Of a stretch of DNA of 21,314 nucleotides, positions 4,103-20,285 are shown piece by piece; within the stretch, counting starts at the first letter, position 1; every line of letters starts with the position of its first letter. A program made the translations under genes and the position numbers. Source of the DNA: Oscillibacter ruminantium GH1 (GTDB lineage: Bacteria > Bacillota > Clostridia > Oscillospirales > Oscillospiraceae); contig NZ_DF158896.1 in NCBI RefSeq assembly GCF_000307265.1, forward strand, positions 1 to 21,314, in the 5' to 3' direction. The notes under the pieces were generated by a model. That model was not told where the DNA came from and did not search any database. It saw only the letters and a list, made by a program, of their open reading frames with translations.

Positions 4103-4426
4103 ATGCAAGAACTGATCCAGCAAAAACTGTTGGAAATCGAGCGAACCCAGCAGGTTAAAATCCTATATGCCGCCGAGTCGGGCAGTCGCGCGTGGGGCTT
4201 TGCCTTGTCGGACAGCGACTACGATGTGCGCTTTCTCAACCTGCGCTGGGCGGAGGGCTATCTGAAAATTGACTGCCCACGGGATGTCATCGAATGGCGG
4301 TTGGACGAGTCCACAGAGGACATGGCAGAGGAGCTAGACACCCTGTTTTTTAAACTTCTATCTGCGGAGGGGAAAACAATATGCGGTTGTGGACCATTCA
4401 GCCTGCACACATCTATGAAGCCTTAA
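4103..4426 (+). CDS. Pol-beta-superfamily nucleotidyltransferase N-terminal domain (GS...DSDYD motif; resembles the RNA-repair-associated predicted NTase family). Probably the 5' part of a frameshifted gene.
   Basis: KILYAAESGSRAWGFALSDSDYDVRF matches the minimal NTase signature. A strong RBS agggagg lies 10 nt upstream. The last ~15 codons look unconstrained and overlap the next ORF. Confidence 0.6.
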   Translation: MQELIQQKLLEIERTQQVKILYAAESGSRAWGFALSDSDYDVRFLNLRWAEGYLKIDCPRDVIEWRLDESTEDMAEELDTLFFKLLSAEGKTICGCGPFSLHTSMKP

Positions 4427-4734
4427 AAGGCGGGTATGTCTATCGCTGTGACCCGGAAAAAGCGCAGCTACTTACAGAATCCAGTTTTGGCCCCGCCTAT
4501 GATTGGTTGTCTGAGCAGATGCGCCTGCGCATTGGCGCGCCACCTGACGGGGTCAAATATCCCGTGTGGGCATGGCACACACTGGAGTGGAAGCACAAAC
4601 GCCCGGACCTGAGGCGAGTAGAGTTTTGTACTTATCGTGCACAGCAGGTGTGCATGGAGATAGAAATCCCTGATACGCAAGTGCTTCTGAGCAACGAAGA
4701 TATGGTAAACTTATTTCATATATTTACTGAGTAA
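4381..4734 (+). CDS. Hypothetical protein (MRLWTIQ...). It may be the C-terminal part of the nucleotidyltransferase, reached by a -1 frameshift.
   Basis: Has its own RBS ggagggg, but overlaps the upstream ORF by 46 nt in a different frame. The combined length of about 210 aa would fit a full-length NTase of that family. Confidence 0.45.
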   Translation: MRLWTIQPAHIYEALKGGYVYRCDPEKAQLLTESSFGPAYDWLSEQMRLRIGAPPDGVKYPVWAWHTLEWKHKRPDLRRVEFCTYRAQQVCMEIEIPDTQVLLSNEDMVNLFHIFTE

Positions 4735-4855
4735 AACTATTTTGAAATGACAGTGAAGAAAAAATTGCCCTGAAAGGGTGTATTTATATTTGCTTGATTT
4801 GGATTCGGCGGATAAACATAATGAAAACGTCACTTTGAAAATAAGGGGGAACGAT

Positions 4856-5677
4856 TTGATTACTACAAACGACAAGCAATTCAATATGTTTCCCTCACAT
4901 GTAGGGCTACGAAAATATATTCTATATTACAATATCGTGTTTCCAGAAAATGATACGTTCATGGCACAATATACGCTTATGCCTAACGCTTGCGGAACAT
5001 TGACGCTTGCCTTTGATGGAACCGCTGTCATTGCTGAACTATGGGGAGCATCCCTGACACCTGTTTTGTTAGGGATGGAACCAAACAGTTATCATGTCCT
5101 GCTGCTGATCCAGCTTTCGCCCTATGGTTTGTATCAAATCACACGCCAAAGCCAAGCTGAGTTTGCTGATAAACGCCTTTCGCTTGCGGATATTGACTAT
5201 GAGCTATTTTATTCGCTGCATCAGGCTTTTGTAATGTCTAAAACCGCAACAGATTTGGCAAATGTTTGTGAAGAGGTTTTATACAGGCGTATGGAAAAGC
5301 ACGTTATTTCCGACGCTTTATTATTAGCGTCTACCGTGATTTCTGATAGCCATGGACAAGTACAAGTGAAAGAAGTCGCCCGGCAATCGGGTTACAGTGA
5401 GCGACAATTAAATCGCTTGTTTCTTGCCCAAATTGGAATGAATATTAAGGATTTTGCACGCCTAACCCGCTTTAACTATGTCTTAAAGCACATTCAAACA
5501 TCGCCTTGCTTCTTTGCGGCATTGTCGCAACAAGCCGGATATTTTGACCAAGCCCATTTTGATAAAGATTTCAAGGCTATAAGCGGTGTTTCACCTCAAG
5601 CCTATCTGAAAACAATGTCTGATTTTTACTATGACGGAACAGAGATATACGATACAATATCCTCAAAGGGGGATTGA
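4856..5677 (+). CDS. AraC-family transcriptional regulator (N-terminal ligand-binding domain plus C-terminal dual HTH)
   Basis: C-terminal AraC HTH signature (SGYSERQLNRLF...YFDQAHFDKDFKAISGVSPQAYLK). TTG 4856 sits 6 nt after the RBS aaggggg. The alternative starts are ATG 4778 and ATG 4886. Confidence 0.75.
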   Translation: MITTNDKQFNMFPSHVGLRKYILYYNIVFPENDTFMAQYTLMPNACGTLTLAFDGTAVIAELWGASLTPVLLGMEPNSYHVLLLIQLSPYGLYQITRQSQAEFADKRLSLADIDYELFYSLHQAFVMSKTATDLANVCEEVLYRRMEKHVISDALLLASTVISDSHGQVQVKEVARQSGYSERQLNRLFLAQIGMNIKDFARLTRFNYVLKHIQTSPCFFAALSQQAGYFDQAHFDKDFKAISGVSPQAYLKTMSDFYYDGTEIYDTISSKGD

Positions 5678-5680
5678 AAA

Positions 5681-6400
5681 ATGAAATATCAAGGTTGTCT
5701 TTTAGCGGTTAAAGATATATCCGCTTCTAAGCATTTTTATGAAAATGTGATTCATCAGAATGCGGTCATGGATATTGGCGTGCATGTAACCTTTGAGGGT
5801 TTTTCTCTGCAACAAGGATATGCCGAACTCGTCGGTGTGTCAGTCGATAGCGTGAAAGAGCAGTCACATAACTTTCAAGTCTATTTTGAAGTAGACGATT
5901 TGGATAAGGTGTATATTGAAATGAAAAGCATATCCGGCTTACAATGGGTGCATGAAATAAAGGAATACCCGTGGGGGCAGCGTGACATTCGAGTATATGA
6001 CCCCGATAAGCATATTGTAGAGATTGCAGAGGATATGAATACGGTAATCAAACGCTTTTTGAATCAGGGCATGTCGAAAGAAGAAGTTGCTAAGCGCACA
6101 ATGTTTCCCCTTGAAGTCGTAAACCAGTATGCGTTAGGCTTTGGTGAAGCAAAGCCGCTATTTTATTCCAAACAAGATCGGAGGAGACGGGCAATGAGTA
6201 AATATGATCCGCTTTGGAAGGCGATAGGTCAACACACGGAAAACAGCTTCACGCTGACCTATGCCGAGATTGAACAGATTCTGGACTTTCCTATCGACCA
6301 CGCCTTTTTAACCTTCAAGAAGGAACTGCCCGCCTACGGCTACGAGGTGGGTAAGATCTCCATGAAGGCACAGACGGTGACGTTCAAACGCTGCGTTTGA
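5681..6400 (+). CDS. VOC (glyoxalase/bleomycin-resistance fold) family protein carrying a ~65-aa C-terminal extension. The extension has its own internal SD-ATG.
   Basis: N-terminal ~125 aa have a VOC-like pattern (LAVKDISASKHFYENV...YFEVDDLD...DPDKHIVEI). There is an in-frame ggaggag-N7-ATG at 6181-6197 with no intervening stop. Confidence 0.55.
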   Translation: MKYQGCLLAVKDISASKHFYENVIHQNAVMDIGVHVTFEGFSLQQGYAELVGVSVDSVKEQSHNFQVYFEVDDLDKVYIEMKSISGLQWVHEIKEYPWGQRDIRVYDPDKHIVEIAEDMNTVIKRFLNQGMSKEEVAKRTMFPLEVVNQYALGFGEAKPLFYSKQDRRRRAMSKYDPLWKAIGQHTENSFTLTYAEIEQILDFPIDHAFLTFKKELPAYGYEVGKISMKAQTVTFKRCV

Positions 6401-6455
6401 CAAGCGGTTGCGTTTCTGCCATCATCGGCTTCACCCATCCAAGAGGAGGAACACT

Positions 6456-7178
6456 ATGAACTGGGAGCCATGGACAGGCTGTTACAAAATAAGTGATGGC
6501 TGTACAAATTGCTATTTTTATGGACCGTATGCAAAACGCTATGGTCAAAGCACAATACAAAAAACAGATAAATTTGATTGGCCTGTAAGGCAAAATGCAA
6601 AGGGCGAATACAACATTAAAGGAAACAAAATTCTTGCAACCTGCTTTGCGACTGACTTTTTCCTACCCGAAGCGGATGAGTGGCGTAAAGAAGTTTGGGC
6701 AATCATCAAAGAAAGAACAGATATTGATTTTTTGATTTTGACAAAGCGAATTGACCGCTTCCCCCAATCGCTTCCGTCTGATTGGGGGTCAGGCTATGAC
6801 AATGTGAATATTGGCTGTACTGTCGAAAATCAAGAATTAGCCGATTACAGACTCCCACTCTTTTTATCCTATCCGATTAAGCGGCGTTTTATTGCTTGCT
6901 CCCCACTTTTAGAAGCGATTGATTTAACACCCTATCTTCATGGAGTAGACCATGTTACTGTTGGCGGCGAAACAGGACGAGAAGCCCGTATGTGCGATTA
7001 TGATTGGGTACTTAATATCCGTGAACAATGCGTAAAAGCAGATGTAACCTTTTGGTTCAAGAATACAGGCTCACTTTTCAAACGTGACGGTGTAGTGGAA
7101 AAAATAAATCCATTTAAGCAAAACAGTGTGGCAAAAGAGCTCGATATTGATATTTCAGATGGGAAAAGATTGTTCTGA
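6456..7178 (+). CDS. DUF5131 / phage Gp37-Gp68 family protein
   Basis: N-terminal WxPWTGCxKISDGCxNCY motif, then FLILTKR...GCTVENQ...RFIACSPLLE...VGGETG...FWFKNTG, typical of this family. The RBS agaggagga lies 6 nt upstream. Confidence 0.7.
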   Translation: MNWEPWTGCYKISDGCTNCYFYGPYAKRYGQSTIQKTDKFDWPVRQNAKGEYNIKGNKILATCFATDFFLPEADEWRKEVWAIIKERTDIDFLILTKRIDRFPQSLPSDWGSGYDNVNIGCTVENQELADYRLPLFLSYPIKRRFIACSPLLEAIDLTPYLHGVDHVTVGGETGREARMCDYDWVLNIREQCVKADVTFWFKNTGSLFKRDGVVEKINPFKQNSVAKELDIDISDGKRLF

Positions 7179-7248
7179 TCAAATCAATGGAGCAAAGCAT
7201 TATTGCCTATTTTACTTCATGAATATTCTGAACGAACCAAATGAGAAA

Positions 7249-7407
7249 CCCCTCTATTAGTGACTAAGTTCATCTACACAATCAAATCTGACTTGCCACG
7301 AAATTGAGCCGCTGCACCTTACTTAGATGCAACGGCTCTTGATATATCTACATGCCCAAAATCGTCCAGAGTATCCTTGCAAAAGGATGGCGAACGGACT
7401 TTTTCAT
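7249..7407 (+). repeat. Intergenic repeat copy A (long form). A 5' part carrying the 10-bp hairpin gagccgctgca/tgcaacggctc, then the core ACATGCCCAAAATCGTCCAGAGTATCCTTGCAAAAGGATGGCGAACGG.
   Basis: About 85% identical over ~160 bp to copy B (7944-8105). The core is shared with copies at 12601, 18194 and 19559. All five copies are in the same orientation. Confidence 0.85.
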
Positions 7408-7444
7408 AGTATCTGTGTCCTTTCCATTGTTCATATTTGTTTAA

Positions 7445-7473
7445 TTGAAAGTTCCGCTTTACTATGGTAAACT
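7445..7473 (+). promoter_or_regulatory. Sigma-70 promoter TTGAAA-17-TAAACT for the ABM-like gene; part of a duplicated module (see 18295-18323)
   Basis: TTGAAA at 7445-7450, a 17-nt spacer, and TAAACT at 7468-7473. The sequence ctttactatggtaaa is conserved in the second copy. Confidence 0.6.
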
Positions 7474-7486
7474 CACTTTATATATC

Positions 7487-7515
7487 TGCCGTGTAAAACT
7501 TTTGTGAAACGGTAG
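7487..7515 (+). promoter_or_regulatory. Inverted repeat CTGCCGT-N16-ACGGTAG just downstream of the -10 element; candidate operator or 5'-leader stem
   Basis: 7-bp arms separated by 16 nt, starting 14 nt after the -10. The same architecture (CTACCGT-N16-ACGGTAG) occurs at 18336-18365. Confidence 0.55.
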
Positions 7516-7582
7516 CATGGGAAATTAACGCTCGGTGAGCAAGTTTTATATAATTTATATAATGTGTGAGGTGGTGCAATAA

Positions 7583-7930
7583 ATGTTTAATGAAATTTGT
7601 ATCTATGAGGCAAAGATTGAAAAGCAAGAGGAAATTGAGCAACTTATGAAAGAGGTTGCCGCCTTTTATATGGAGCAGGATGGTGTTATTGAAGTTAGAT
7701 ATATCAAACGCACCCACCGCCAAACAGATTTTAATGCCGTTAAAGAAGGGGCATTGCCTGTTCGCCTCACACGCAATGTAGGCAAAGTCACTTATGTTTT
7801 ACATTGGACTGTTAGAGATGAAGAAACTCACGCAAGGGTGTCAAAGTTAGGGTTAGAGCATTTTTACAAGCGATGGAACAGATGCTTAACCACTATGCCA
7901 AAAATTATTTTGGGTGAAAACATTGTGTAA
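7583..7930 (+). CDS. Small ABM-like (antibiotic biosynthesis monooxygenase / Dabb-fold-like) protein, 115 aa
   Basis: RBS gaggtgg. The composition and the pattern YVLHWTVRDEETHARV...HFYKRW resemble ABM-domain proteins, but this is a weak assignment. Confidence 0.45.
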   Translation: MFNEICIYEAKIEKQEEIEQLMKEVAAFYMEQDGVIEVRYIKRTHRQTDFNAVKEGALPVRLTRNVGKVTYVLHWTVRDEETHARVSKLGLEHFYKRWNRCLTTMPKIILGENIV

Positions 7931-7943
7931 GGGTATGAGCACA

Positions 7944-8105
7944 CCCTCTGTTAGTGGTTTAACTTCACCTACACAATAAAATCTGACTTATCACGAATTT
8001 GAGCCGTTGCATCTTACTTGACGCAACGGCTCTTGCTTTGTCTACATGCCAAGAATAGTCCAGAGTATCCTTGCATTAGGTCGGTGAACGGATTTTAATT
8101 TTCAT
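7944..8105 (+). repeat. Intergenic repeat copy B (long form, with a perfect 10-bp hairpin gagccgttgc/gcaacggctc at 8001-8032)
   Basis: Aligned by eye with copy A. It begins 14 nt after the stop of the 7583-7930 gene and ends in ...ggtgaacggattttaattttcat. Confidence 0.85.
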
Positions 8106-8125
8106 AAACAGCGCTTCCTTTCATA

Positions 8126-8154
8126 TTGACATTTTTTGATGTGAAGCATATACT
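8126..8154 (+). promoter_or_regulatory. Sigma-70 promoter TTGACA-17-TATACT for the ars operon, followed by a palindrome ATCAA-N6-TTGAT (8162-8177) that is a candidate ArsR operator
   Basis: Consensus -35 and a near-consensus -10 with 17-nt spacing. The inverted repeat lies between the promoter and the arsR RBS. Confidence 0.6.
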
Positions 8155-8192
8155 ATATCATATCAAGATAATTTGATGTGAGGTGATAAACG

Positions 8193-8507
8193 TTGGAGCT
8201 TACTCCGGAGAAGAACGCTAATGTATTTAAGGCATTTTGCGATGAAAAGCGGCTTGCCATTTTGGAACTGCTGCGCAGCGGTGAAAAATGCGCCTGCGTG
8301 CTCATTGATCAAATGGAAATCGGTCAGTCCTCCTTGTCCTATCACATGAAGATTTTATGTGAATCGGGTATTGTCGAAAGCAGACAGGAAGGCAAATGGA
8401 CACATTATAAAATCAGTGAACAGGGCAGCCACGAGGCCATGCTCCTGTTAAAAGCAATTACCACCCCCAATGCAACCGCTGAAGATACTCGTTGTTGCAA
8501 TCAATAA
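8193..8507 (+). CDS. arsR: ArsR/SmtB-family metalloregulator (arsenical resistance operon repressor)
   Basis: TTG start after the RBS gaggtga. The HTH carries a CxC metalloid-binding motif (EKCACVLIDQ) similar to ArsR ELCVCDL. Confidence 0.8.
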   Translation: MELTPEKNANVFKAFCDEKRLAILELLRSGEKCACVLIDQMEIGQSSLSYHMKILCESGIVESRQEGKWTHYKISEQGSHEAMLLLKAITTPNATAEDTRCCNQ

Positions 8508-8600
8508 CGGCCATCTGATGGAAGATGGCTTTTATTCGGCACAACATATCAAGTTTTTTTGATATGACTATTGAATTTAAGAAAGAGAGGCGCTTACCCT

Positions 8601-9614
8601 ATGGAGATCCTTCAAAATACGTGGCTGTTCTTTCAAGACCAAGTGCTTGGAATGAAATGGCTCAACGCCCTAATCGGTAATCTGCTCTCGTTGTTCGGTC
8701 TTGATGTAACAGGACGAATTGGTGGCAGCGTTCAATTCTTTATCTATGATGTACTAAAAATCACCGTACTGCTCTGCGTGCTGATTTTCATCATCTCGTA
8801 CATTCAAAGCTACTTCCCGCCGGAACGAAGCAAGAAAATTATGAGCCGCTTTCACGGCGTGTGGGCAAATATCATGGCAGCACTGCTTGGCACGGTAACG
8901 CCTTTTTGCTCTTGCTCCTCCATACCTCTGTTCATTGGATTTACCAGTGCCGGACTGCCCCTTGGCGTGACTTTTTCCTTTCTGATTTCCTCACCCATGG
9001 TAGACCTCGGGTCGCTCGTTCTGCTCATGAGCATCTTTGGCACAAAGGTCGCTATCGTCTATGTCGTTGTGGGCCTGGTTATCGCGGTCGTTGGCGGTAC
9101 GCTGATTGAAAAACTTCACATGGAAAACTATGTGGAAGAATTCATTCGCTCGGCAAGCGGCGTAGATATTGAATCGCCTGACTTAACCCGCAAAGAGCGT
9201 GTCATTTACGCCAAGGATCAGGTGGTGTCAACCTTCAAAAAAGTTCTGCCGTACATTCTGGTTGGCGTGGGCATCGGAGCTATCATCCACAACTGGATTC
9301 CTGAAAGCTGGATTGAGATGGTGCTTGGCAGCAATAATCCTTTTGGGGTAGTGCTGGCAACTCTGCTTGGCGTTCCCATGTACGCTGACATTTTCGGCAC
9401 GATTCCGGTGGCCGAAGCGCTGCTCTACAAAGGCGCGCAGCTTGGTACGGTTCTCTCCTTTATGATGGCAGTCACAACGCTTTCCCTGCCCTCCATCATC
9501 ATGCTGCGCAAGGCGGTAAAGCCGAAGCTGTTGGGCACATTTATTGCCATCTGCACCATCGGCATTATCATTGTTGGCTATCTGTTTAATATTTTCCAGT
9601 ATCTACTGGTTTAA
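8601..9614 (+). CDS. arsP: ArsP-type permease (DUF318/PF03773 family; conserved TPFCSCS motif)
   Basis: Polytopic membrane protein with GTVTPFCSCSSIP. ATG 8601 is preferred over the track's TTG at 8571, which has no RBS. Confidence 0.7.
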   Translation: MEILQNTWLFFQDQVLGMKWLNALIGNLLSLFGLDVTGRIGGSVQFFIYDVLKITVLLCVLIFIISYIQSYFPPERSKKIMSRFHGVWANIMAALLGTVTPFCSCSSIPLFIGFTSAGLPLGVTFSFLISSPMVDLGSLVLLMSIFGTKVAIVYVVVGLVIAVVGGTLIEKLHMENYVEEFIRSASGVDIESPDLTRKERVIYAKDQVVSTFKKVLPYILVGVGIGAIIHNWIPESWIEMVLGSNNPFGVVLATLLGVPMYADIFGTIPVAEALLYKGAQLGTVLSFMMAVTTLSLPSIIMLRKAVKPKLLGTFIAICTIGIIIVGYLFNIFQYLLV

Positions 9615-9629
9615 TGGGAGGGAAAGAGA

Positions 9630-10403
9630 ATGGCTAAAAACTGGTATCCAGTCATCGATTATCTTGCTTGCACTGAATGCGGAACCTGCGTGGATTTTTG
9701 CTCCCACAGTGTTTATAACAAAGCAAAAGCCCCGTCCCCTGTGGTGATGCAACCCGGAAACTGCATTGACCGTTGCCACGGCTGCGGCAACAAGTGTCCG
9801 GCAGGCGCCATCTCCTATGTAGGCGACGATACTGGCTGGACACCGCCAAACGGCGAATGCAGTGCAAAAAAAAGCGTAGATTGCTGCCGCGGCGGGGCTT
9901 GTGAGGAGGATTCCTCCAAGGCTGTGCTTGTGGAATATCTCTATCTTGATCTCAATACCTGTGACCGCTGTATCGGCGCCGATGCGGTACTGGAAGAAGT
10001 TTTGGGCAGTATCGCGCCCGCTCTGGAGACTGCCGGATATACCATGCGGCTTCAAAAGGTACAGATCGCCACAAAAGAACTGGCGGAGCACTACCGATTC
10101 CTTGCGTCGCCCACCATTCGTGTAAATGGGCAGGATATCTGCGGACCTGTTGCGGAAAACACCTGCGGCTGCTGTGGTGAAATCAGCGGAACCGATGTGA
10201 CCTGTCGTACCTTTGCATACAAAGGTCAAGCCTATGAAGTACCGCCCAAAGCCATGCTGGCCGAAGGAATTCTAAGAGCTGTGCTCGGCATGGTGCAGCC
10301 CGTTTGTGACTGCGGCGAGTATTCACTTCCAGAAAATCTCAAAAACTTCTTTGAGGGAAAAGCTGTGAAGACCGGTTGCTGCCCTGAAGGTACTTGCGGA
10401 TGA
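9630..10403 (+). CDS. 4Fe-4S ferredoxin domain fused to a Cys-rich thioredoxin-like DUF2703-type domain
   Basis: N-terminal CTECGTCVDFC...CIDRCHGCGNKCP ferredoxin motifs. The C-terminal domain carries several CxxC/CC pairs (CDRC, CGCCGE, CDCGE, CCPEGTCG). The RBS is gggaggg. Confidence 0.6.
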   Translation: MAKNWYPVIDYLACTECGTCVDFCSHSVYNKAKAPSPVVMQPGNCIDRCHGCGNKCPAGAISYVGDDTGWTPPNGECSAKKSVDCCRGGACEEDSSKAVLVEYLYLDLNTCDRCIGADAVLEEVLGSIAPALETAGYTMRLQKVQIATKELAEHYRFLASPTIRVNGQDICGPVAENTCGCCGEISGTDVTCRTFAYKGQAYEVPPKAMLAEGILRAVLGMVQPVCDCGEYSLPENLKNFFEGKAVKTGCCPEGTCG

Positions 10404-10453
10404 GTAAACAAAGGATATAAAAACAGTTATTCCACTTTTGATTTTCGCCGTCA

Positions 10454-10705
10454 TTGCCGAGATTGACCTTTACGGTTTTGGGTATCCTTGCGGCCACGGC
10501 GGGCAGCCTTGTATGGAGTGTTTTGCTACTGCTGCTCTATTTCATTGGGCACGGCATTCTCGCCGTGATTGCGGAGCCTTCCATGGGCTTTGCCCAAAAG
10601 CTCTCCCAAAGCGAGAAGTATGGAAAAGCCAGCGCTATTTTGAAAATCGTCATGGGCGCGGTGATCCTGCTCATCGGTTTCTATTTGTTATATTCAGGTT
10701 TCTAA
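10454..10705 (+). pseudogene. CcdA/DsbD-family thiol-disulfide transporter fragment (two C-terminal TM helices only); likely a truncated gene
   Basis: Only 83 aa with 2 TM helices resembling the C-terminal third of CcdA. TTG start with no RBS. An in-frame TGA at 10439 excludes an upstream extension. Confidence 0.4.
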
Positions 10706-10730
10706 TCATGAATTTAAGGAGGTTTTTATT

Positions 10731-11102
10731 ATGGCATTGTTTGGTTTTGGTAAAAAGAAAAATGCAGAGGAAGAATTGGTGCAGTGTGGTTGCGGGGAAA
10801 TGTGCAAGCCCTCCGAAATTGCCGCAAAGAAAGCTGACGAAGAAGCAAAAGTGAGCGGTTCATCCGTCAAGGTGCTTGGCTCGGGCTGTGCAAAGTGCAA
10901 TCAACTGGAAGCGGCTACCTTGGAAGCGCTCAAAGAGCTTGGCATGGATGCCACCATTGACCATGTGACAGACTTTACACAGATCGCTGCTTACGGTGTG
11001 ATGACAACTCCTGCATTGGTTGTGGACGGCAAGGTCGTTTCCTTTGGAAAGGTTTTAAAAAAGGACGAGGTCGTTAAAATCCTGCAAAAAGTACGGGGGT
11101 AA
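10731..11102 (+). CDS. Thioredoxin-family small redox protein (redox-active disulfide protein 2-like, CAKC active site)
   Basis: GSGCAKCNQLEAA thioredoxin-fold CxxC motif and ~120-aa size. Strong RBS aggagg. This type of protein is typical of ars loci. Confidence 0.7.
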   Translation: MALFGFGKKKNAEEELVQCGCGEMCKPSEIAAKKADEEAKVSGSSVKVLGSGCAKCNQLEAATLEALKELGMDATIDHVTDFTQIAAYGVMTTPALVVDGKVVSFGKVLKKDEVVKILQKVRG

Positions 11103-11106
11103 ATTT

Positions 11107-12153
11107 ATGGCAAAGGAAAAATCACAAAGCATTGGCTTCTTTCAAAAATACCTGACCGTGTGGGTTGCTCTCTGTATGACGGCAGGTGTTTTAATTGGTA
11201 AACTTTTACCTGCCGTTCCTGCATTTTTAGGCCGTTTTGAGTATGCCAGAGTTTCTATTCCGGTCGCCATCCTCATTTGGGTGATGATTTATCCCATGAT
11301 GATGAAGGTGAATTTCCAGAGCGTCAAAAATGTGGGGAAAAACCCAAAGGGGTTATTCGTCACATGGGTGACAAACTGGCTCATCAAGCCGTTCACCATG
11401 TACGGTATCGCCGCGCTATTTTTCTATGTGGTTTTTAAGGGCTTGATTGCCCCTGACCTCGCCAAGGAGTATCTGGCGGGTGCAGTACTCTTGGGTGCGG
11501 CACCCTGCACAGCGATGGTGTTCGTCTGGAGCACGCTCACCAAAGGAAACCCTGCCTACACCGTAGTACAGGTAGCAACCAACGATTTGATTATTCTGGT
11601 TGCCTTTGTGCCGATTGTGAAATTCCTACTGGGCGTTTCCAACGTGTCCGTGCCATGGGACACGCTGATTTTATCGGTCATTTTATTTGTAGTCATTCCG
11701 CTTGCGGGCGGTATTCTGACCCGTGTGCTGGTGACAAATCGCAAGGGCACAGAGTATTTTGAAAACACCTTTGTCCATAAATTTGATAATGCCACCAGCA
11801 TTGGTCTGCTGCTCACTTTGGTATTGCTGTTTTCCTTCCAAGGTGATGTGATTTTGAATAATCCGCTGCACATTCTACTCATTGCTGTGCCGCTTGTTTT
11901 GCAAACTTTCCTTATTTTCTTCATCGCTTATTTTGCTTGCAAATGGCTGAAGCTGCCCCATGATATTGCCGCCCCTGCGGGGATGATTGGCGCGTCCAAC
12001 TTCTTTGAACTGTCGGTCGCTGTGGCGATTGCATTGTTTGGTACTACTTCACCGGCGGCTCTTGCCACCGTAGTTGGCGTGCTGACCGAGGTGCCGGTGA
12101 TGCTGTTGCTTGTAAAAATCGCCAACAAAACGAAAGGATGGTTTCCAGTATGA
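11107..12153 (+). CDS. acr3: ACR3-family arsenite efflux transporter
   Basis: 10-TM protein. The N-terminal part (FQKYLTVWVALCMTAGVLIGK...IPVAILIWVMIYPMM...) is characteristic of ACR3/ArsB-type arsenite efflux transporters. Confidence 0.8.
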   Translation: MAKEKSQSIGFFQKYLTVWVALCMTAGVLIGKLLPAVPAFLGRFEYARVSIPVAILIWVMIYPMMMKVNFQSVKNVGKNPKGLFVTWVTNWLIKPFTMYGIAALFFYVVFKGLIAPDLAKEYLAGAVLLGAAPCTAMVFVWSTLTKGNPAYTVVQVATNDLIILVAFVPIVKFLLGVSNVSVPWDTLILSVILFVVIPLAGGILTRVLVTNRKGTEYFENTFVHKFDNATSIGLLLTLVLLFSFQGDVILNNPLHILLIAVPLVLQTFLIFFIAYFACKWLKLPHDIAAPAGMIGASNFFELSVAVAIALFGTTSPAALATVVGVLTEVPVMLLLVKIANKTKGWFPV

Positions 12154-12557
12154 GCAAACCTAAAGTAGCATTTATCTGCGTACACAACTCCTGCCGCAGC
12201 CAAATTGCCGAAGCACTGGGCAAGTACCTTGCGTCTGATGTCTTTGAAAGCTATTCTGCCGGAACGGAAGTAAAGCCGCAAATCAATCAGGATGCTGTGC
12301 GGCTGATGAAGCAGATTTATGGCATCGACATGGAGCGAACTCAGCGCAGTAAGCTGCTGGAGGAGATTCCCCCAGTGGATATCGTGGTGACCATGGGCTG
12401 CAATGTGCAGTGTCCTTTTTTGCCCTGTATGCACAGGGAGGATTGGGGGTTAGATGACCCAACCGGCAAAAGCGATGTGGACTTTGAACGTACTATAAAA
12501 GCAATCCGCTCTAAAATTGAGAATTTGAGAGAGCGAATCGCTGACAACAAACTATAA
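12150..12557 (+). CDS. arsC: Arsenate reductase ArsC, thioredoxin-coupled LMW-PTPase type
   Basis: CVHNSCRS P-loop (CX5R) near the N-terminus with downstream Cys residues. ATG 12150 overlaps the acr3 stop (ATGA); the track's ATG 12138 is the alternative start. Confidence 0.8.
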   Translation: MSKPKVAFICVHNSCRSQIAEALGKYLASDVFESYSAGTEVKPQINQDAVRLMKQIYGIDMERTQRSKLLEEIPPVDIVVTMGCNVQCPFLPCMHREDWGLDDPTGKSDVDFERTIKAIRSKIENLRERIADNKL

Positions 12558-12559
12558 AG

Positions 12560-12592
12560 AACGAGGCTGGCGTTTGTCAGCCTCGTTTTCCT
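12560..12592 (+). terminator. Hairpin terminator after arsC (10-bp stem aacgaggctg/cagcctcgtt, then a U-rich tail)
   Basis: Seen directly in the sequence. The U-tract is interrupted (tttcctattc). Confidence 0.55.
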
Positions 12593-12600
12593 ATTCTCCG

Positions 12601-12646
12601 TTACATCCCCAGTATCGTCCAGAGTATCCTTGCATAAGGATAGTGA
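12601..12646 (+). repeat. Intergenic repeat copy 3 (short, core only: TTACATCCCCAGTATCGTCCAGAGTATCCTTGCATAAGGATAGTGA)
   Basis: Matches the core of copies A, B and 4 at most positions. It sits between the convergent arsC and nifX-like genes. Confidence 0.75.
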
Positions 12647-12659
12647 TATTTTATAATTT

Positions 12660-12695
12660 AAAAAAACAAACCCTGCTGATTTATTTTCAACAGGG
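12660..12695 (-). terminator. Putative terminator of the minus-strand nif-like operon (hairpin plus T-run on the minus strand)
   Basis: On the minus strand: accctg-N15-cagggt followed by tttgttttttt. Confidence 0.4.
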
Positions 12696-12738
12696 TAGTC
12701 TTTTTATAATGCAATTATATCCTTGTGTTCAATGTTTT

Positions 12739-13098
12739 CTATTCGCCGCATTCATCATGATGCTGATGTTCATGGCAAACGGAACCGGTTGTCTTGAGGT
12801 CGCCCTTTAGATAGTTCTCAACAGCAGTTTTGGCGTCGCCAGAAGCTCCTACTACAACTTCAACATTCCTTTCATTAAAAATCTCAACCGCACCTCCGCC
12901 CATACCACCGCTGATAATGACATTGATACCACGATCAGCAAGAAAGTTAGGCAAGAATCCGGGTTTATGCCCGGGGTTAGCAACGGTTTCGCTTTTGATG
13001 ATTTGATTATTTTCAGTATCAAAAATCATGAAACCTTCGCAATGTCCAAAGTGCTCAGTCACCATTCCATTTTCGCTTGCTACTGCAATTTTCAGCAT
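12739..13098 (-). CDS. NifB/NifX/NafY-family dinitrogenase FeMo-cofactor-binding-domain protein with a His-rich C-terminal tail (HEHQHHDECGE)
   Basis: MLKIAVASENGMVTEHFGHCEGFMIFD... pattern of the PF02579 fold. A strong RBS ggaggaaaa sits inside the upstream gene. Confidence 0.7.
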   Translation of the reverse strand: MLKIAVASENGMVTEHFGHCEGFMIFDTENNQIIKSETVANPGHKPGFLPNFLADRGINVIISGGMGGGAVEIFNERNVEVVVGASGDAKTAVENYLKGDLKTTGSVCHEHQHHDECGE

Positions 13099-13099
13099 T

Positions 13100-13939
13100 T
13101 TAGTTTTCCTCCATTTTTTCTAAGATTTTTGCAACCGGCTCAAACCAATTGCCATCGAAAAGCTCTATCATACCCTTGTCACATGCAGCCGAAATTTTTG
13201 GGTCGATAGGTAACTTAGCAAGAACCTTTAAATTATGTTTTTCGGCAATTTCTTCAATATGACTTTCGCCAAATATCTGATAGTCCTTTCCACTATCAGG
13301 GCATTTAAAGTAGGACATGTTTTCCACCAGGCCGATAATGGGAATATTCATCATCTCTGCCATCTTGACAGCCTTTGATACAATCATGGATACAAGCTCC
13401 TGTGGGGACGTCACAACGATAATTCCGTCAACAGCAATAGACTGAAATACCGTAAGAGGAACATCGCCGGTGCCCGGTGGCATATCAATGAACATAAAAT
13501 CTACATCGCTCCAAATAACATCTGTCCAAAACTGTTTTACTGTGCCGGCAATAATCGGCCCTCTCCAGACAACCGGATCAGTATCGTTTTCTAAAAGCAA
13601 ATTAACAGACATGATATCAATCCCGGTCTTCGTTTTAACAGGGAATAAGCCGAACTCACTGCCTTTAGCTTTTTCTTTGATTCCAAATGCCTTAGGAATA
13701 GAAGGTCCGGTAACATCCGCATCTAGAATAGCGGTATGATAGCCCATTCTATTCATTGTAACTGCAAGCATTGAGGTAACAAGTGATTTTCCGACACCGC
13801 CTTTGCCGCTGACAACACCAATAACCTTTTTTACACTGCTCATCTCATGCAGCTTCTCGGAGAAATCTGTTTTTTGTTCTTTTCTTTCTGCGCAGTCCTC
13901 CGAACAACTGCTACAGCTTTGATTGCAATTTTCGCTCAT
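13100..13939 (-). CDS. Mrp/NBP35 (ApbC-like) P-loop ATPase with an N-terminal Cys-rich segment (CNQSCSSCSEDC)
   Basis: Walker A GKGGVGKS, plus ...CPDSGK... and the Mrp signature. RBS aaggag. Confidence 0.8.
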   Translation of the reverse strand: MSENCNQSCSSCSEDCAERKEQKTDFSEKLHEMSSVKKVIGVVSGKGGVGKSLVTSMLAVTMNRMGYHTAILDADVTGPSIPKAFGIKEKAKGSEFGLFPVKTKTGIDIMSVNLLLENDTDPVVWRGPIIAGTVKQFWTDVIWSDVDFMFIDMPPGTGDVPLTVFQSIAVDGIIVVTSPQELVSMIVSKAVKMAEMMNIPIIGLVENMSYFKCPDSGKDYQIFGESHIEEIAEKHNLKVLAKLPIDPKISAACDKGMIELFDGNWFEPVAKILEKMEEN

Positions 13940-13956
13940 AATCTTGCTCCTTTTAT

Positions 13957-16493: not shown

Positions 16494-16494
16494 A

Positions 16495-16863
16495 TTAATT
16501 GCCCCCGTGCCCGTGAAATCCGGCATGAAATTCATCCAGCAAAGGTAATTTCCCATCTATAAAAGCATCAATATTATCTTTGGCTGAACCGGTTATCGTT
16601 TTATAAATTTTGATTTCAGCGGGTTTTAGCACTTCAGCAGCATTTTCTCCTAAGCGGGGAGTGAGTAAAACATCTGCTTTGTTATCAACTATTATTTGTG
16701 CAGCTTTAATCCCTGCACCTCCTGTGCTTGCCGCTGCACTGTTGTCAATAAATATACTTTCCTTAGTTTCTACATCGTAAATAAGAAAATAGGGAGTACG
16801 TCCAAATGACACACATACATTCGACTCCAAGGTTTTCTCATCTACTGGAATTGCTATTTTCAT
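16495..16863 (-). CDS. NifX/NifB-like FeMo-cofactor-binding-domain protein
   Basis: [30 protein letters not shown]... of the PF02579 family. Confidence 0.7.
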   Translation of the reverse strand: MKIAIPVDEKTLESNVCVSFGRTPYFLIYDVETKESIFIDNSAAASTGGAGIKAAQIIVDNKADVLLTPRLGENAAEVLKPAEIKIYKTITGSAKDNIDAFIDGKLPLLDEFHAGFHGHGGN

Positions 16864-17622: not shown

Positions 17623-17685
17623 AATTCATCACCTCCATCCTAATCAGAAATAACCAGAGCGTCCTCCGGTTATCCCTGATGCCCG

Positions 17686-17964: not shown

Positions 17965-18008
17965 AATATTCACCTCCTTATGGTTTGTGGCATATGCCAT
18001 CTATTCTT

Positions 18009-18294: not shown

Positions 18295-18323
18295 TTGAAA
18301 CAAGCTCTTTACTATGGTAAAAT
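18295..18323 (+). promoter_or_regulatory. Sigma-70 promoter TTGAAA-17-TAAAAT for the GGDEF gene (duplicate of the 7445-7473 module)
   Basis: TTGAAA-caagctctttactatgg-TAAAAT. ctttactatggtaaa is shared with copy A's promoter. Confidence 0.6.
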
Positions 18324-18335
18324 TAGAAAAAAGTA

Positions 18336-18365
18336 CTACCGTGCAAAATCTTTGCAAAACGGTAG
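18336..18365 (+). promoter_or_regulatory. Inverted repeat CTACCGT-N16-ACGGTAG (perfect 7-bp arms) 13 nt downstream of the -10; candidate operator or leader stem
   Basis: Same geometry as 7487-7515. The spacer is itself palindromic (gcaaaatctttgcaaaa). Confidence 0.55.
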
Positions 18366-18436: not shown

Positions 18437-19510
18437 GTGATAAAAGACCTATTTATAAATATGACCATTCTCATAAGTTTCATAAGTTTAGGAGGCCAAG
18501 TCGCAAAAAAGCATAATTATGAAGAAAATAATAGTCTAAGGACAAAAATCATTATTGGAACGATATTAGGTACTTTGGGCTGCTTTCTCATGCTGTTTAG
18601 CGTCAAAGTCAATGACAATACAATTATTGATTTTAGAAATATAGCCATAGTTATATCAGCACTTTTCGGGGGGCCTATACCTATTTTTATTACCACTGCA
18701 CTAATCGCTGTTTTTAGAGTAGCATACTTTGGGGTTAACATCGCTTCCCTTATAGGAGTTGTTGCAGCAGTCTTAAATTCTTTTGGCTGTTGGTACATAG
18801 CGAGGCGTAATATTAAAACATGGAGAAAGTGGGTTTACTCAATAATTTATGTTTTAGTTGTTGCAACCATAGCACTTTTTCTAATACTGGGAAACAGAAG
18901 TGACTTTCTTATAATAATATCTATATATTGGATTTCGTTCTGCTTAGTTTCAGCAATAATATATTGGTACATTAAATACAGCCTTGCCGCAAACAGATTA
19001 TTTAATAGACTACAGAAGGAATCTACCAAGGATTTTCTTACAGGTCTAAATAATGTTAGACAATTTGACTTTGTTTTTAACAGCACCATGAAAAATGCTC
19101 TTAATAAGGAAGAAAGCCTTTCTTTGTTAATGGTGGATATTGATTTTTTTAAAAAAGTTAATGACACCTACGGACACATGGAGGGGGATATTGTATTGAA
19201 AGAGTTGGGGAAAATATTATCTGAAAACTGCAGGCATTTTGATGAAGTTTCCAGAAATGGCGGTGAAGAATTTTCAGTGCTACTTCCCGATTGCGCCTAC
19301 CCGCGGGCAATGCAAATAGCGGAACGAATAAAAGATGCTGTTAAAAATCATTCTTTCACATTATCTACAGGTGTGCAAATTCAAATTACTATTTCAATAG
19401 GAGTTGCGTCATACCCTGAAACCATACAGGATATTGAAAAACTTATGGAGAAGGCAGACACGGCACTGTATGCTGCGAAGCGATCGGGGAGAAATAGGGT
19501 TTGTTCATAA
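18437..19510 (+). CDS. Membrane sensor diguanylate cyclase. The N-terminal ~190 aa form a 5-6 TM sensor (5TMR-LYT-like); the C-terminal part is a GGDEF domain with an intact GGEEF active site and an RxxD I-site.
   Basis: GTG start after aaggaaggg. LSLLMVDIDFFKKVNDTYGH...RHFDEVSRNGGEEF... Confidence 0.8.
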   Translation: MIKDLFINMTILISFISLGGQVAKKHNYEENNSLRTKIIIGTILGTLGCFLMLFSVKVNDNTIIDFRNIAIVISALFGGPIPIFITTALIAVFRVAYFGVNIASLIGVVAAVLNSFGCWYIARRNIKTWRKWVYSIIYVLVVATIALFLILGNRSDFLIIISIYWISFCLVSAIIYWYIKYSLAANRLFNRLQKESTKDFLTGLNNVRQFDFVFNSTMKNALNKEESLSLLMVDIDFFKKVNDTYGHMEGDIVLKELGKILSENCRHFDEVSRNGGEEFSVLLPDCAYPRAMQIAERIKDAVKNHSFTLSTGVQIQITISIGVASYPETIQDIEKLMEKADTALYAAKRSGRNRVCS

Positions 19511-19565: not shown

Positions 19566-19589
19566 CATCACATCCCCAAAATCGTCCAG
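19559..19589 (+). repeat. Intergenic repeat copy 5, truncated after CGTCCAG at 19589 (only the first 31 nt of the core)
   Basis: ctctttgcatcacatccccaaaatcgtccag matches copy 4. The sequence diverges completely from 19590 onward, which coincides with the GC shift. Confidence 0.8.
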
Positions 19590-19604
19590 ATACGGCTCTA
19601 TACA

Positions 19605-20285
19605 ATGTCGGCAGAACAGGACAATGACTTTGCTGCATACCGGCTCGGCAAGCTGTATCTTGGCGGTGAGGGCGTGCTGAAGGATGTGGAGTCCGCCATT
19701 CTCTGGCTGACCTTTGCCGCCGACAGAAAGAACCAATTTGCTGAATATGCCCTCGGCGTCCTCTACTTCAAGGGGGAGGATGTTCCGAAGGATGTCCCCA
19801 AAGCTCTGGAATACCTGAAACGGTCTGCCGGTCAGGGTAATCAGTTTGCACAGTACCGGCTGGGCAAGATTTATCTTATGGGCGAGGATATGCCAAAGGA
19901 TATTCAGACTGCCCTGCAATTTCTGACGGCTGCCGCTGAACAGGGAAATCAGTATGCGCAATACACCCTCGGCAAGCTGTATCTGATGGGAAAGGATGTT
20001 CCGAAGGACAAGGAAACTGCTGTCCGCTGGTTTACCTTATCGGCAGAGCAGGGCAACATTTACGCTCAGTTTTTCCTCGACCATATGGACGATTTCAAAG
20101 ACCCCTCTGTCCTGCTGGCGGGAACACGGCTCCTGCATCACATGAGCCGTGTTTTTGCGGACAACGCTCCGCCGCTGAAACCGCCCGGTCAGCGAACCGA
20201 CCGCAAGCTCCTCCGCAAGCTTCGTGAGAAAAAGCAGGCGCAGGGCCATGCGAGGGATGACCATGAGCAAACCATGTCATTATAA
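19605..20285 (+). CDS. Sel1-repeat (TPR-like) protein with a basic C-terminal tail
   Basis: At least 5 Sel1 units (AxYxLGxxYxxGxGVxKDxxxAxxWxxxAAxQGN). ATG 19605 has a weak RBS, so the start is uncertain. The upstream extension in the track overlaps the GGDEF gene and was rejected. Confidence 0.6.
   Translation: MSAEQDNDFAAYRLGKLYLGGEGVLKDVESAILWLTFAADRKNQFAEYALGVLYFKGEDVPKDVPKALEYLKRSAGQGNQFAQYRLGKIYLMGEDMPKDIQTALQFLTAAAEQGNQYAQYTLGKLYLMGKDVPKDKETAVRWFTLSAEQGNIYAQFFLDHMDDFKDPSVLLAGTRLLHHMSRVFADNAPPLKPPGQRTDRKLLRKLREKKQAQGHARDDHEQTMSL

What the first reader, a model, noticed from the sequence alone, without database searches (positions are those of the whole stretch)
7445..7515. Portable promoter plus CTACCGT-N16-ACGGTAG operator module, duplicated upstream of two unrelated genes
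The ~75 bp at 7445-7516 and 18295-18366 are about 70% identical. Both have TTGAAA-17-TAAAYT promoters sharing CTTTACTATGGTAAA. Both are followed 13-14 nt later by 7-bp inverted repeats spaced by exactly 16 nt. In both loci the module is contiguous with a repeat core, so the repeat seems to deliver an outward-reading regulated promoter. The downstream genes differ: an ABM-like small protein and a 5TM-GGDEF cyclase. This suggests a small regulon controlled by one dimeric factor, or a shared 5'-leader hairpin.
Basis: seen in the sequence. Interest (0 to 1): 0.6.

Follow-up and report, generated by a model that had tools for sequence, protein, structure and literature searches.

The report
Promoter-leader head of mobile gene cassettes
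The duplicated "promoter plus operator" is the standard front end (a strong promoter and a folded mRNA leader) of small mobile gene cassettes that pile up at one recombination site inside conjugative elements of many Clostridia, so it is a portable expression unit and probably not a repressor-controlled regulon.

Summary
Windows 7436-7516 and 18286-18366 are 70% identical. Both carry TTGAAA-17-(TGn)TAAAYT followed by a 7-nt inverted repeat spaced by 16 nt. A third copy, cut at its left end, lies at 4701-4794.

The "repeat core" is a ~45-bp site-specific recombination site. Its left half is the last codons (..WTILGM*) of DUF3852, a backbone gene of a conjugative element. Its right half travels with whatever cassette follows. 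Cassettes pile up there in tandem in about 100 genomes of Clostridia. A TndX-like large serine recombinase gene abuts the same site in four loci.

About 40 sequence variants of the promoter-leader head were found. They precede unrelated cargo genes: GGDEF, AraC, GNAT, glyoxalase, ECF sigma, TetR and others. The promoter elements are almost invariant.

The inverted repeat behaves more like an RNA hairpin than an operator:
- Wobble pairs are strand-specific (33 G-U against 10 A-C).
- There are a few compensatory changes.
- The arm spacing varies.
- No cognate regulator is linked, and there are no copies outside cassette heads.

A second small hairpin followed by AUUUAUAU has clearer covariation. 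The support is moderate, because RNAalifold calls no consensus. The function of the leader is inferred, not shown.

The parts
4701..4794 (+). Third copy of the module, cut at its left end. Similarity begins at the upstream edge of the -10 (TATGGTAAAC). It has a degenerate P1 (4723-4755), P2 (GCCCTGAAAGGGT, 4767-4779) and ATTTATAT, and lies upstream of the AraC-family gene 4778/4808-5677.
   Evidence: (D11). The intact version, with its -35 and a core, is in L066 and L010.
7241..7305 (+). Conserved block in the cassette tail (3' UTR-like), upstream of the terminator hairpin. It recurs at 7935-8000 and in many other loci.
   Evidence: (D6)
7306..7338 (+). Hairpin followed by a T-rich tail; the terminator-like end of the preceding cassette (AraC-glyoxalase-DUF5131). 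Equivalent hairpins with different sequences lie at 8001-8032, 12560-12587, 18159-18195 and 19524-19561.
7350..7369 (+). Left half of the recombination core (ACATGCCCAAAATCGTCCAG). On the minus strand it encodes ..LWTILGM*, the C-terminus of the backbone protein DUF3852. Other left halves: 8044-8063, 12603-12622, 18205-18224, and 19570-19589 (the last one has no right half).
   Evidence: (D1)
7370..7395 (+). Right half of the core (AGTATCCTTGCAAAAGGATGGCGAAC), which belongs to the cassette that follows. Other right halves: 8064-8089, 12623-12646, 18225-18250.
7445..7473 (+). Promoter A: -35 TTGAAA, 17-nt spacer, TG at -15/-14, -10 TAAACT
7486..7515 (+). Inverted repeat A, read here as leader hairpin P1: outer stem CUGCCGU/ACGGUAG, inner stem GUAAA/UUUGU
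7530..7552 (+). Leader hairpin P2 (GCTC-GGT-GAGC, 7530-7540) and the AU-rich tract that follows (GTTTTATATAAT). It overlaps a second promoter-like match, TTAACG-18-TATAAT, at 7525-7554.
7583..7930 (+). Cargo gene of cassette 7370-8063: a 115-aa protein with no recognised family. The identical protein is listed in 2807 blocks of the public assembly collection.
18295..18323 (+). Promoter B: -35 TTGAAA, 17-nt spacer, TG, -10 TAAAAT
18336..18365 (+). Inverted repeat B, read as leader hairpin P1: outer stem CUACCGU/ACGGUAG, inner stem GCAAA/UUUGC. This copy has no P2 and no ATTTATAT.
18437..19510 (+). Cargo gene of cassette 18225-19589: 5TM-GGDEF diguanylate cyclase
19570..19620 (+). Right end of the array: a left half of the core joined to about 30 nt of degenerate DUF3852 3' end, followed directly by a Sel1-repeat gene. 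In other assemblies an intact DUF3852 gene and the rest of the conjugative-element backbone follow here.

Best explanation
Each copy is the 'head' of a small mobile gene cassette.

Shown: a cassette begins with the right half of a ~45-bp recombination core. About 50 bp further on comes a housekeeping-sigma promoter with an extended -10 (TTGAAR, 17 nt, TGnTAAAMT). Then comes a leader of about 75-100 nt, the cargo gene or genes, a terminator-like hairpin, and the left half of the next core. That left half rebuilds the last codons of DUF3852, a backbone gene of a conjugative element (ICE).

Shown: cassettes stand in direct tandem between trbL and DUF3852 in ICEs of many Clostridia, and core halves re-assort at the central CCAG|RGTATCC.

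Inferred: a TndX-like large serine recombinase (LSR) does the cutting and joining. It is carried by a mobilisable element that uses the same site.

Inferred: the CTRCCGT-N16-ACGGTAG repeat is transcribed, because it starts about 5-7 nt after the predicted transcription start, and it forms a 5'-proximal RNA hairpin (P1). A second short GC hairpin followed by AUUUAUAU (P2) comes after it.

Inferred function: the head makes cargo expression independent of where the cassette lands. The promoter supplies transcription. P1 most likely protects or insulates the 5' end of the mRNA. P2 may act as a weak attenuator or a processing signal.

The array in the window is a decayed remnant: it has no conjugation genes, DUF3852 is reduced to about 30 nt, and the leftmost head is cut.
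For: Promoter: in 38 of 38 distinct heads the spacer is 17 nt, the -35 is TTGAA[A/G/T], TG is present in 37, and TAAA[C/A/T]T is kept, while the first seven spacer positions vary freely. The generic scan calls both window sites, each with TG.

Portability: 41 distinct variants were found in loci L001-L193. Nearly all are preceded by a core. They lie upstream of unrelated genes: ECF sigma, glyoxalase, GNAT, TetR, alpha/beta hydrolase, MBL, DUF1835/DUF3658, GGDEF and AraC.

RNA reading of the repeat:
- On the model-based alignment of 38 distinct sequences, 79.5% of cells pair, against 32-54% when the partners are slid. The covariation score is 0.229 against 0.195 in shuffles (1 of 500 reach it) (similar on the MAFFT alignment).
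- The six P1 pairs hold 161 Watson-Crick, 33 G-U and only 10 A-C cells.
- Compensatory arms exist: CTAATG/CATTAG and CTACCGA/TCGGTAG.
- Arm spacing varies.
- All five P2 pairs change on both sides (CGCTC/GAGCG, CCCC/GGGG, CACCC/GGGTG, ACCCA/TGGGT, CGTTT/AAACG). P2 is more stable on the + strand in 16 variants against 3 (p=0.006).
- Folding energies beat shuffles: P1 region p=9e-4, P2 region p=2e-6.

Recombination site:
- Pairs with the same right flank but a different left flank are 99.7% identical in the right half and 81.6% in the left half. The converse pairs give 76.8% and 91.9%.
- The left half equals the end of DUF3852.
- Cassette order and content differ between copies of the ICE.
- The 3' end of an LSR gene (Resolvase + Recombinase + Zn_ribbon_recom + DUF4368) lies about 30 bp from the core in L029, L079, L086 and L094, next to MobA relaxase and MobC genes.
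- LSRs with DUF4368 form a multi-targeting, TndX-like clade (PMC10083194).
Against: - RNAalifold predicts no consensus structure on either alignment.
- Single-sequence z-scores are weak: -1.0 for A and -1.5 for B.
- P1 pairs at 5 or more of 6 positions in only 28 of 38 variants. It is decayed in the AraC-cassette lineage, which includes the window's own copy at 4701.
- The P1 loop is at least as conserved as the arms, and a plain stabilising hairpin does not explain that.
- The sequences are related by descent, so cell counts and the binomial p-value overstate independence. The model-based alignment also leans towards the named structure.
- Window copy B lacks P2.
- There are no transcription-start, half-life or recombination data. 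The link between the recombinase and the cassettes rests on adjacency in loci that were selected for holding the core.
Confidence: 0.55

Rival explanations
1. The inverted repeat is a DNA operator. An element-encoded dimeric repressor binds just downstream of the transcription start and switches cargo cassettes on or off together, for example during transfer.
For: Both arms are conserved as sequence: CTACCG/CGGTAG or TGGTAG in most variants. The repeat keeps a fixed distance from the -10 (alignment). The sequence between the arms is also conserved, which a protein footprint could explain. Copy B is a perfect DNA palindrome that folds equally well on either strand.
Against: The half-site centres lie about 23-24 bp apart and the spacing varies among variants. 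G-U exceeds A-C by 33 to 10, which a double-stranded site does not predict. The L004 arms changed at two pairs in a compensating way. No regulator gene is consistently next to the heads. No copy of the repeat lies outside cassette heads, for instance upstream of backbone genes, in 1.31 Mb.
Confidence: 0.15
2. The leader has no function of its own. The heads are alike only because the cassettes descend from one ancestral cassette whose cargo was repeatedly swapped, and the hairpins are decaying relics. Only the promoter is under selection.
For: P1 is decayed in about a quarter of variants, and P2 is missing in window copy B. RNAalifold finds no consensus. The heads are mosaic: the same 115-aa gene occurs behind different leader variants.
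Against: P2 keeps a hairpin through many different stem sequences. Pairing is far higher than in the slid controls. Wobble use is strand-specific. The leader blocks AAAACTTTT and ATTTATAT stay nearly invariant while the promoter spacer drifts.
Confidence: 0.2
3. The leader is a true regulatory RNA. P2 plus the U-rich tract would be a conditional terminator, read through when an element-encoded or host factor, or a ligand, binds P1 and its conserved loop.
For: The layout is a hairpin followed by AUUUAUAU upstream of the ribosome-binding site, with a conserved P1 loop and a conserved purine-rich linker.
Against: No Rfam family matches. No conserved alternative (antiterminator) pairing was found. 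P2 is short (4-5 bp, -4 to -7 kcal/mol) and its U tract is interrupted and offset by 2-3 nt. The cargo genes have no functional theme, which argues against a ligand-sensing riboswitch. There is no conserved leader peptide (direct reading of the sequences).
Confidence: 0.1

Closest known systems
[quoted passage not shown] Sources: PMC5704250, PMC12084326.
   Same: Direct repeats of an att site delimit units that lack their own recombinase. The site lies at the end of a target gene and rebuilds it. The units are nested inside an ICE, next to the VirB6/TrbL gene. A serine-recombinase IME uses the same site.
   Different: The units here are very small, down to 686-694 bp with a single gene. They are numerous and shuffled like cassettes. 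Many share a standard promoter-leader head and a standard tail. The target gene is DUF3852, not a Maff2-related gene. Excision and mobilisation were not tested.
Tn4451/Tn5397-type large serine recombinase 'transposases' (TnpX, TndX) and the multi-targeting DUF4368 clade of LSRs (PMC10083194)
   Same: The recombinase next to the core has the Resolvase + Recombinase + Zn_ribbon_recom + DUF4368 architecture. The site is about 45 bp, with exchange at a central conserved dinucleotide region.
   Different: No experimental link exists between this recombinase and the cassettes. Identity of the att sequence with the TnpX or TndX sites was not examined. The window itself has no recombinase gene.
Integron gene cassettes
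   Same: One-gene units in the same orientation, in arrays with variable order and content, re-assorting at a site between the cassettes.
   Different: There is no IntI tyrosine recombinase next to the arrays, and no attC-type structure with R''/L''/L'/R' boxes. The cassettes carry their own promoter and terminator instead of relying on Pc. One cassette in the window (12623-18224) is an eight-gene operon on the opposite strand.
Extended -10 (TGn) sigma-A promoters of Firmicutes and 5'-terminal stem-loops that stabilise mRNA (ermC, aprE and ompA leaders; from general knowledge, not tested here)
   Same: -35 TTGAAA, 17-nt spacer, TGnTAAAYT, and a hairpin beginning a few nucleotides after the predicted start.
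   Different: Neither the start site nor any stabilising effect has been measured. The hairpin loop is conserved in sequence, which simple stabilisers do not need.

Membership tests
Sigma-70/sigma-A promoter with extended -10 | -35 hexamer close to TTGACA and -10 close to TATAAT, with A at position 2 and T at position 6 | tested here: met
   TTGAAA with TAAACT (A) or TAAAAT (B); 9/12 and 10/12 matches
Sigma-70/sigma-A promoter with extended -10 | Spacer of 16-18 nt and TG one base upstream of the -10 | tested here: met
   17 nt in 38 of 38 variants; TG in 37 of 38
Sigma-70/sigma-A promoter with extended -10 | Across homologues, the hexamers are conserved while the spacer sequence drifts | tested here: met
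   Caveat: the variants were collected with a profile and a regular expression that include these elements.
Sigma-70/sigma-A promoter with extended -10 | Transcription start mapped 6-8 nt downstream of the -10 | not testable with these tools
   No RNA data available
Operator of a dimeric transcription factor | Two half-sites at a fixed spacing | tested here: not met
   The spacing between the 6-bp arms is 18 nt in 26 variants, 17 in 7, and 6, 13, 15 or 21 in the rest
Operator of a dimeric transcription factor | Substitutions in the two arms show no strand preference | tested here: not met
   33 G-U against 10 A-C cells in P1. The cells are not phylogenetically independent.
Operator of a dimeric transcription factor | A cognate regulator gene is linked, or further sites form a regulon | tested here: not met
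   Neighbouring genes are unrelated. No sites outside cassette heads in 1.31 Mb. A regulator acting in trans cannot be excluded.
Operator of a dimeric transcription factor | A protein binds the double-stranded site | not testable with these tools
   Needs EMSA or pull-down
Structured cis-regulatory RNA (Rfam family or riboswitch) | Match to a curated covariance model | tested here: not met
   Only tRNAs reach the gathering threshold. Nothing relevant up to E=10 in 7300-7620.
Structured cis-regulatory RNA (Rfam family or riboswitch) | Conserved secondary structure supported by covariation | tested here: inconclusive
   The named structure pairs in 79.5% of cells against 32-54% when slid. The covariation score is exceeded by 1 of 500 shuffles. 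All P2 pairs show two-sided changes. But RNAalifold calls nothing.
Structured cis-regulatory RNA (Rfam family or riboswitch) | Downstream genes share a pathway or ligand | tested here: not met
   The cargo genes are functionally unrelated
Integron cassette array | IntI-type tyrosine recombinase with attI next to the array | tested here: not met
   None in the window. The arrays are flanked by trbL and DUF3852. One Xer-like gene in L200 has no core beside it.
Integron cassette array | attC sites: imperfect palindromes bounded by RYYYAAC and GTTRRRY | tested here: not met
   The junction is a conserved ~45-bp sequence without these boxes. The nearby hairpins are perfect, vary in sequence and are followed by T-runs.
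att site of a site-specific (serine) recombinase with tandem accretion of CIME-like units | Direct repeats in one orientation delimit the units | tested here: met
   Five cores in the window are all on the + strand. Counted by hand, 17 of 18 contigs with several cores have them all in one orientation.
att site of a site-specific (serine) recombinase with tandem accretion of CIME-like units | Each half-site co-segregates with its own flank, with exchange at the centre | tested here: met
   99.7% against 81.6%, and 76.8% against 91.9%
att site of a site-specific (serine) recombinase with tandem accretion of CIME-like units | The site lies at the end of a target gene, and the incoming unit restores that gene | tested here: met
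   The left half encodes ..(I/L)WTILGM*, the DUF3852 C-terminus. The array ends on the native DUF3852 gene body.
att site of a site-specific (serine) recombinase with tandem accretion of CIME-like units | A recombinase gene lies next to a site in autonomous members | tested here: met
   The 3' end of a 534-aa LSR gene is about 30 bp from the core in 4 loci. These loci had been selected for holding the core.
att site of a site-specific (serine) recombinase with tandem accretion of CIME-like units | Excision as a circle and re-integration catalysed by the recombinase | not testable with these tools
   Needs PCR for circular junctions or an in vivo or in vitro recombination assay

The most novel reading that the evidence does not exclude
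Clostridial conjugative elements carry an integron-like cassette system that runs on a large serine recombinase. Self-contained one-gene expression cassettes, with a standard promoter-leader head, a terminator tail and a ~45-bp att site, are captured and shuffled at the 3' end of DUF3852. In this reading the conserved two-hairpin leader is a new regulatory RNA through which the element or the host sets cargo expression.
Probability: 0.25. Interest if true: 0.8.

Novelty: new variant of a known kind. Interest (0 to 1): 0.5.

Why it matters
If the reading holds, a very widespread set of accessory genes in Clostridia travels as plug-in units that bring their own promoter, leader and terminator. 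The identical 115-aa cargo protein alone is listed in 2807 blocks of the public assembly collection. The cargo includes arsenic resistance, detoxification enzymes, regulators and c-di-GMP cyclases. This would explain how cargo is expressed wherever it lands. It gives a simple sequence handle, the core plus the head, for delimiting cargo in fragmented metagenome assemblies; many assemblies break exactly at these repeats. It also offers a compact, naturally portable promoter-leader and an att site for genetic tools in Clostridia.

Tried and rejected
1. Reading the core as the N-terminus of a minus-strand protein (frame ..PSFCKDTLDDFG..). No long ORF and no conserved ATG in about 100 loci. The meaningful frame turned out to be the DUF3852 C-terminus.
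2. Rfam at the gathering threshold on the whole window, and at E up to 10 on 7300-7620: nothing relevant.
3. blastn (distant mode) of 7240-7560 against plasmid and phage collections: no match.
4. Literature searches for the core sequence on either strand, and for DUF3852/PF12963: nothing relevant. A search for serine-recombinase cassette systems in Clostridia also found nothing specific.
5. Integron attC, IS200/IS605-type ends and group II intron insertion after terminators were considered from the hairpin-plus-core geometry. They were dropped because no such enzyme is linked and the half-site segregation fits an att site.
6. An inverted repeat flanking the -35 (GAGAG..CTCTC, GCGAG..CTCGC). 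It is present in only a subset of variants and the excess over permutation is small, so it was not pursued.
7. A leader peptide: no conserved small ORF with a ribosome-binding site in the leaders (reading).
8. A Xer-like tyrosine recombinase next to the 115-aa gene in L200 as an integron-style integrase. There is no core beside it, and it is seen in one context only.
9. Single-sequence folding significance: weak.

Full report
**The observation.** The two stretches are truly homologous. Windows 7436-7516 and 18286-18366 match at 57 of 81 positions without gaps. None of about 200,000 random 81-mer pairs from the window exceeded 45 matches. Both stretches carry TTGAAA, a 17-nt spacer, and TGnTAAAYT (7445-7473 and 18295-18323). 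Twelve nucleotides later both carry CTRCCGT-N16-ACGGTAG (7486-7515 and 18336-18365), a pattern found nowhere else in the window. The homology continues leftwards through the 'repeat core'. A third copy sits at 4701-4794, in front of the AraC-family gene. It is cut at the -10 and has a decayed repeat.

**The surroundings in the window.** The core occurs five times in the same orientation: at 7350, 8044, 12603 and 18205, and at 19570 where only the left 20 nt are present. A hairpin with a different sequence each time, followed by a T-run, precedes every core. The cores cut the low-GC middle of the window into five units:
- 4701-7369: AraC, glyoxalase, DUF5131
- 7370-8063: a 115-aa protein
- 8064-12622: an ars operon
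- 12623-18224: an Fe-S/NifU-type operon on the other strand
- 18225-19589: 5TM-GGDEF

The flanks have higher GC content.

**The core is a recombination site.** A scan of one genome per species with a 19-base core pattern returned 100 loci. Nearly all come from Clostridia of many families, and many hold several cores in one orientation. Left and right flanks re-assort freely:
- Pairs with the same right flank but different left flanks are 99.7% identical in the right half of the core and 81.6% in the left half.
- Pairs with the same left flank but different right flanks give 91.9% (left half) and 76.8% (right half).

So each half belongs to its own flank, and exchange happens at the central CCAG|RGTATCC.

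**Where the site comes from.** I looked up contigs that encode the identical 115-aa protein and the identical GGDEF protein. The arrays lie between two backbone genes of a conjugative element (ICE). On one side is trbL (TrbL_5, with DUF7768 and a DNA methylase). On the other is DUF3852 (followed by DUF8193-8195, DUF6550, DUF4320 and a T2SSE ATPase). Read on the minus strand, the left half of the core is the end of DUF3852 (..APTYI|WTILGM*). The last left half in an array joins the native DUF3852 gene body. Cassette order and content differ between copies of the ICE. The AraC unit lies before or after the 115-aa unit, and one genome has a ~17-kb array with the 115-aa unit twice.

**State of the window's array.** After the last left half, only about 30 nt of degenerate DUF3852 remain, and a Sel1-repeat gene follows. 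The array in the window is therefore a decayed remnant without conjugation genes.

**The enzyme (inferred).** A 534-aa large serine recombinase ends about 30 bp to the right of a core in L029, L079, L086 and L094. Its domains are Resolvase, Recombinase, Zn_ribbon_recom and DUF4368. In L029 and L079 a MobA-type relaxase gene lies next to it, and in L079 a MobC/NikA gene as well. Recombinases with DUF4368 form a multi-targeting, TndX-like clade (PMC10083194). The picture matches what is called tandem accretion of cis-mobilisable elements, and matches mobilisable elements with serine integrases nested in conjugation genes of ICEs (PMC5704250, PMC12084326). That this recombinase moves the cassettes is an inference from adjacency, and those loci were selected for holding the core.

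**The module as a promoter.** A profile built from 11 heads, plus one metagenome scan, gave 41 distinct variants. Almost all have a core, sometimes diverged, 45-55 bp upstream. In 38 of 38 the spacer is 17 nt, and TTGAA, TG (37 of 38) and TAAA-T are kept, while the first seven spacer positions drift. That is the pattern expected of a working promoter with an extended -10. One caveat applies: the search tools themselves favour these elements.

**The genes behind the module.** They are unrelated: ECF sigma factors, glyoxalase, GNAT, TetR, XRE, alpha/beta hydrolase, MBL, DUF1835/DUF3658, GGDEF, AraC, a hydrogenase-rubrerythrin fusion and small membrane proteins. Not every cassette has this head. 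The ars unit keeps only the left part of the head and uses its own ArsR-type promoter. The Fe-S unit is inverted.

**Operator or RNA: structure evidence.** I named a structure: P1 outer stem, P1 inner stem, and P2 (a short GC hairpin just before a nearly invariant ATTTATAT).
- On a MAFFT alignment of 25 variants, 78.5% of cells pair, against 32-50% when partners are slid by 1-3 columns. The covariation score is reached by 2 of 500 shuffles.
- On a covariance-model alignment of 38 distinct sequences the figures are 79.5%, 32-54% and 1 of 500. All five P2 pairs and three P1 pairs show two-sided changes.
- P2 exists with many different stems. It is more stable on the + strand in 16 variants against 3 (p=0.006).
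- In P1 the non-Watson-Crick cells are mostly G-U (33) rather than A-C (10). Random decay of a DNA palindrome would give equal numbers.
- The L004 variant has CTAATG/CATTAG in place of CTACCG/CGGTAG. L057 has an A-U in place of U-A at the seventh pair.

**Operator or RNA: other evidence.**
- Arm spacing is 18 nt in 26 variants and differs in the other 12.
- The repeat begins about 12 nt after the -10, so it lies inside the predicted transcript, close to its 5' end.
- No regulator gene is consistently linked.
- The repeat is absent from the rest of 1.31 Mb of ICE DNA.

**Evidence against the RNA reading.**
- RNAalifold calls no consensus on either alignment.
- Single-sequence z-scores are weak.
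- P1 is decayed in about a quarter of variants, including the window's own copy at 4701.
- The P1 loop is as conserved as the arms.
- Copy B lacks P2.
- The sequences are related by descent, so the counts are not independent.

**Verdict on the mechanism.** Most likely (about 0.55) the repeat is a 5'-proximal mRNA hairpin within a two-hairpin leader, and the whole head is a portable expression unit. The promoter and the cassette context are well supported. The role of the hairpins (mRNA protection or insulation for P1; weak attenuation or processing for P2) is inferred. A DNA operator (0.15), a relic without function (0.2) and a true regulatory RNA (0.1) remain possible.

**Comparison with known systems.**
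- It is not an integron. There is no IntI and no attC boxes, and the cassettes carry their own promoter and terminator.
- It works like accretion of CIME-type units at the att site of a serine-recombinase element nested in an ICE. That kind is known.
- What appears unreported: the very small single-gene units, their cassette-like shuffling, the DUF3852 target, and the shared promoter-leader head. No paper in the searchable library holds the core sequence or mentions DUF3852.
- No Rfam family covers the leader.

I therefore rate it a new variant of a known kind, of moderate interest.

Noticed in passing
window 4381-4734 and 4701; L022 6690: Two independent junctions begin within 1-3 nt of the same point of the module, at the upstream edge of the -10 (|TATGGTAAAC). 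In the window the junction lies inside a DUF3841 gene, cut after ..VLLSNED. In L022 it lies just after the stop of a complete DUF3841 gene. This may be a secondary or pseudo recombination site.
   Followed up: partly
window 7350-7410, minus strand: A Shine-Dalgarno-like GGAAAGGA and an ATG to the right of the core open a mini-ORF (MKKSVRHPFARILWTILGM*). It runs through the core and ends with the DUF3852 C-terminus. The frame and the ATG are not kept in all variants; for example the ars head stops after 9 codons.
   Followed up: partly
window 7241-7305 and 7935-8000: A ~65-nt block upstream of the terminator hairpin (ATGAGMAMMCCCTCT..CACAATMAAATCTGACTT..CACGAAWTT) is conserved in many cassette tails in other genomes. 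It may be a 3' UTR element of unknown role.
   Followed up: no
window 7525-7554 and 7544-7563: There is a second promoter-like match, TTAACG-18-TATAAT, inside leader A. Leader A also has a 10-nt tandem duplication (TTTATATAAT) that is absent from the otherwise identical L018-type leader.
   Followed up: no
window 7583-7930: The 115-aa cargo protein has no Pfam, NCBIfam or PDB sequence match, yet the identical sequence is listed in 2807 blocks of the public assembly collection. It is a very widespread orphan gene.
   Followed up: partly
window 8121-8181 and 8544-8567: The ars cassette has repeated TCATATCAAG-N-TTTGATGTGA motifs around its TTGACA-17-TATACT promoter, and again after arsR. They look like ArsR operators.
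   Followed up: no
window 4103-4426 and 4381-4734: An RlaP-family gene and a DUF3841 gene are both truncated and overlap each other, next to RtcB and an SPFH-domain gene downstream of five tRNA genes (33-569). The high-GC left flank is therefore itself a patchwork.
   Followed up: no
window 19605-20285: A Sel1-repeat gene with four 108-nt repeat units (19623-20008) starts directly at the remnant of DUF3852. GC content jumps from about 35% to about 52% at this point.
   Followed up: no
L195 5800-8124: In one metagenome contig the 115-aa cassette lies between host genes (spo0A, birA, a BclA-like gene) and three tandem large serine recombinase genes. Its left half of the core is joined to a different sequence about 40 nt from the end of the first recombinase gene.
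   Followed up: no
L012, L026, L031, L032, L036 and others (right-flank cluster 76): The most promiscuous right-hand neighbour of the core, seen with seven different left flanks, is the 3' end of a hybrid-cluster-protein (Hcp-like) gene on the minus strand.
   Followed up: partly
L200 4816-5754: A Xer-like tyrosine recombinase gene lies directly left of the 115-aa gene with no core in between. The same cargo gene there carries a different leader variant, so the heads are mosaic.
   Followed up: partly
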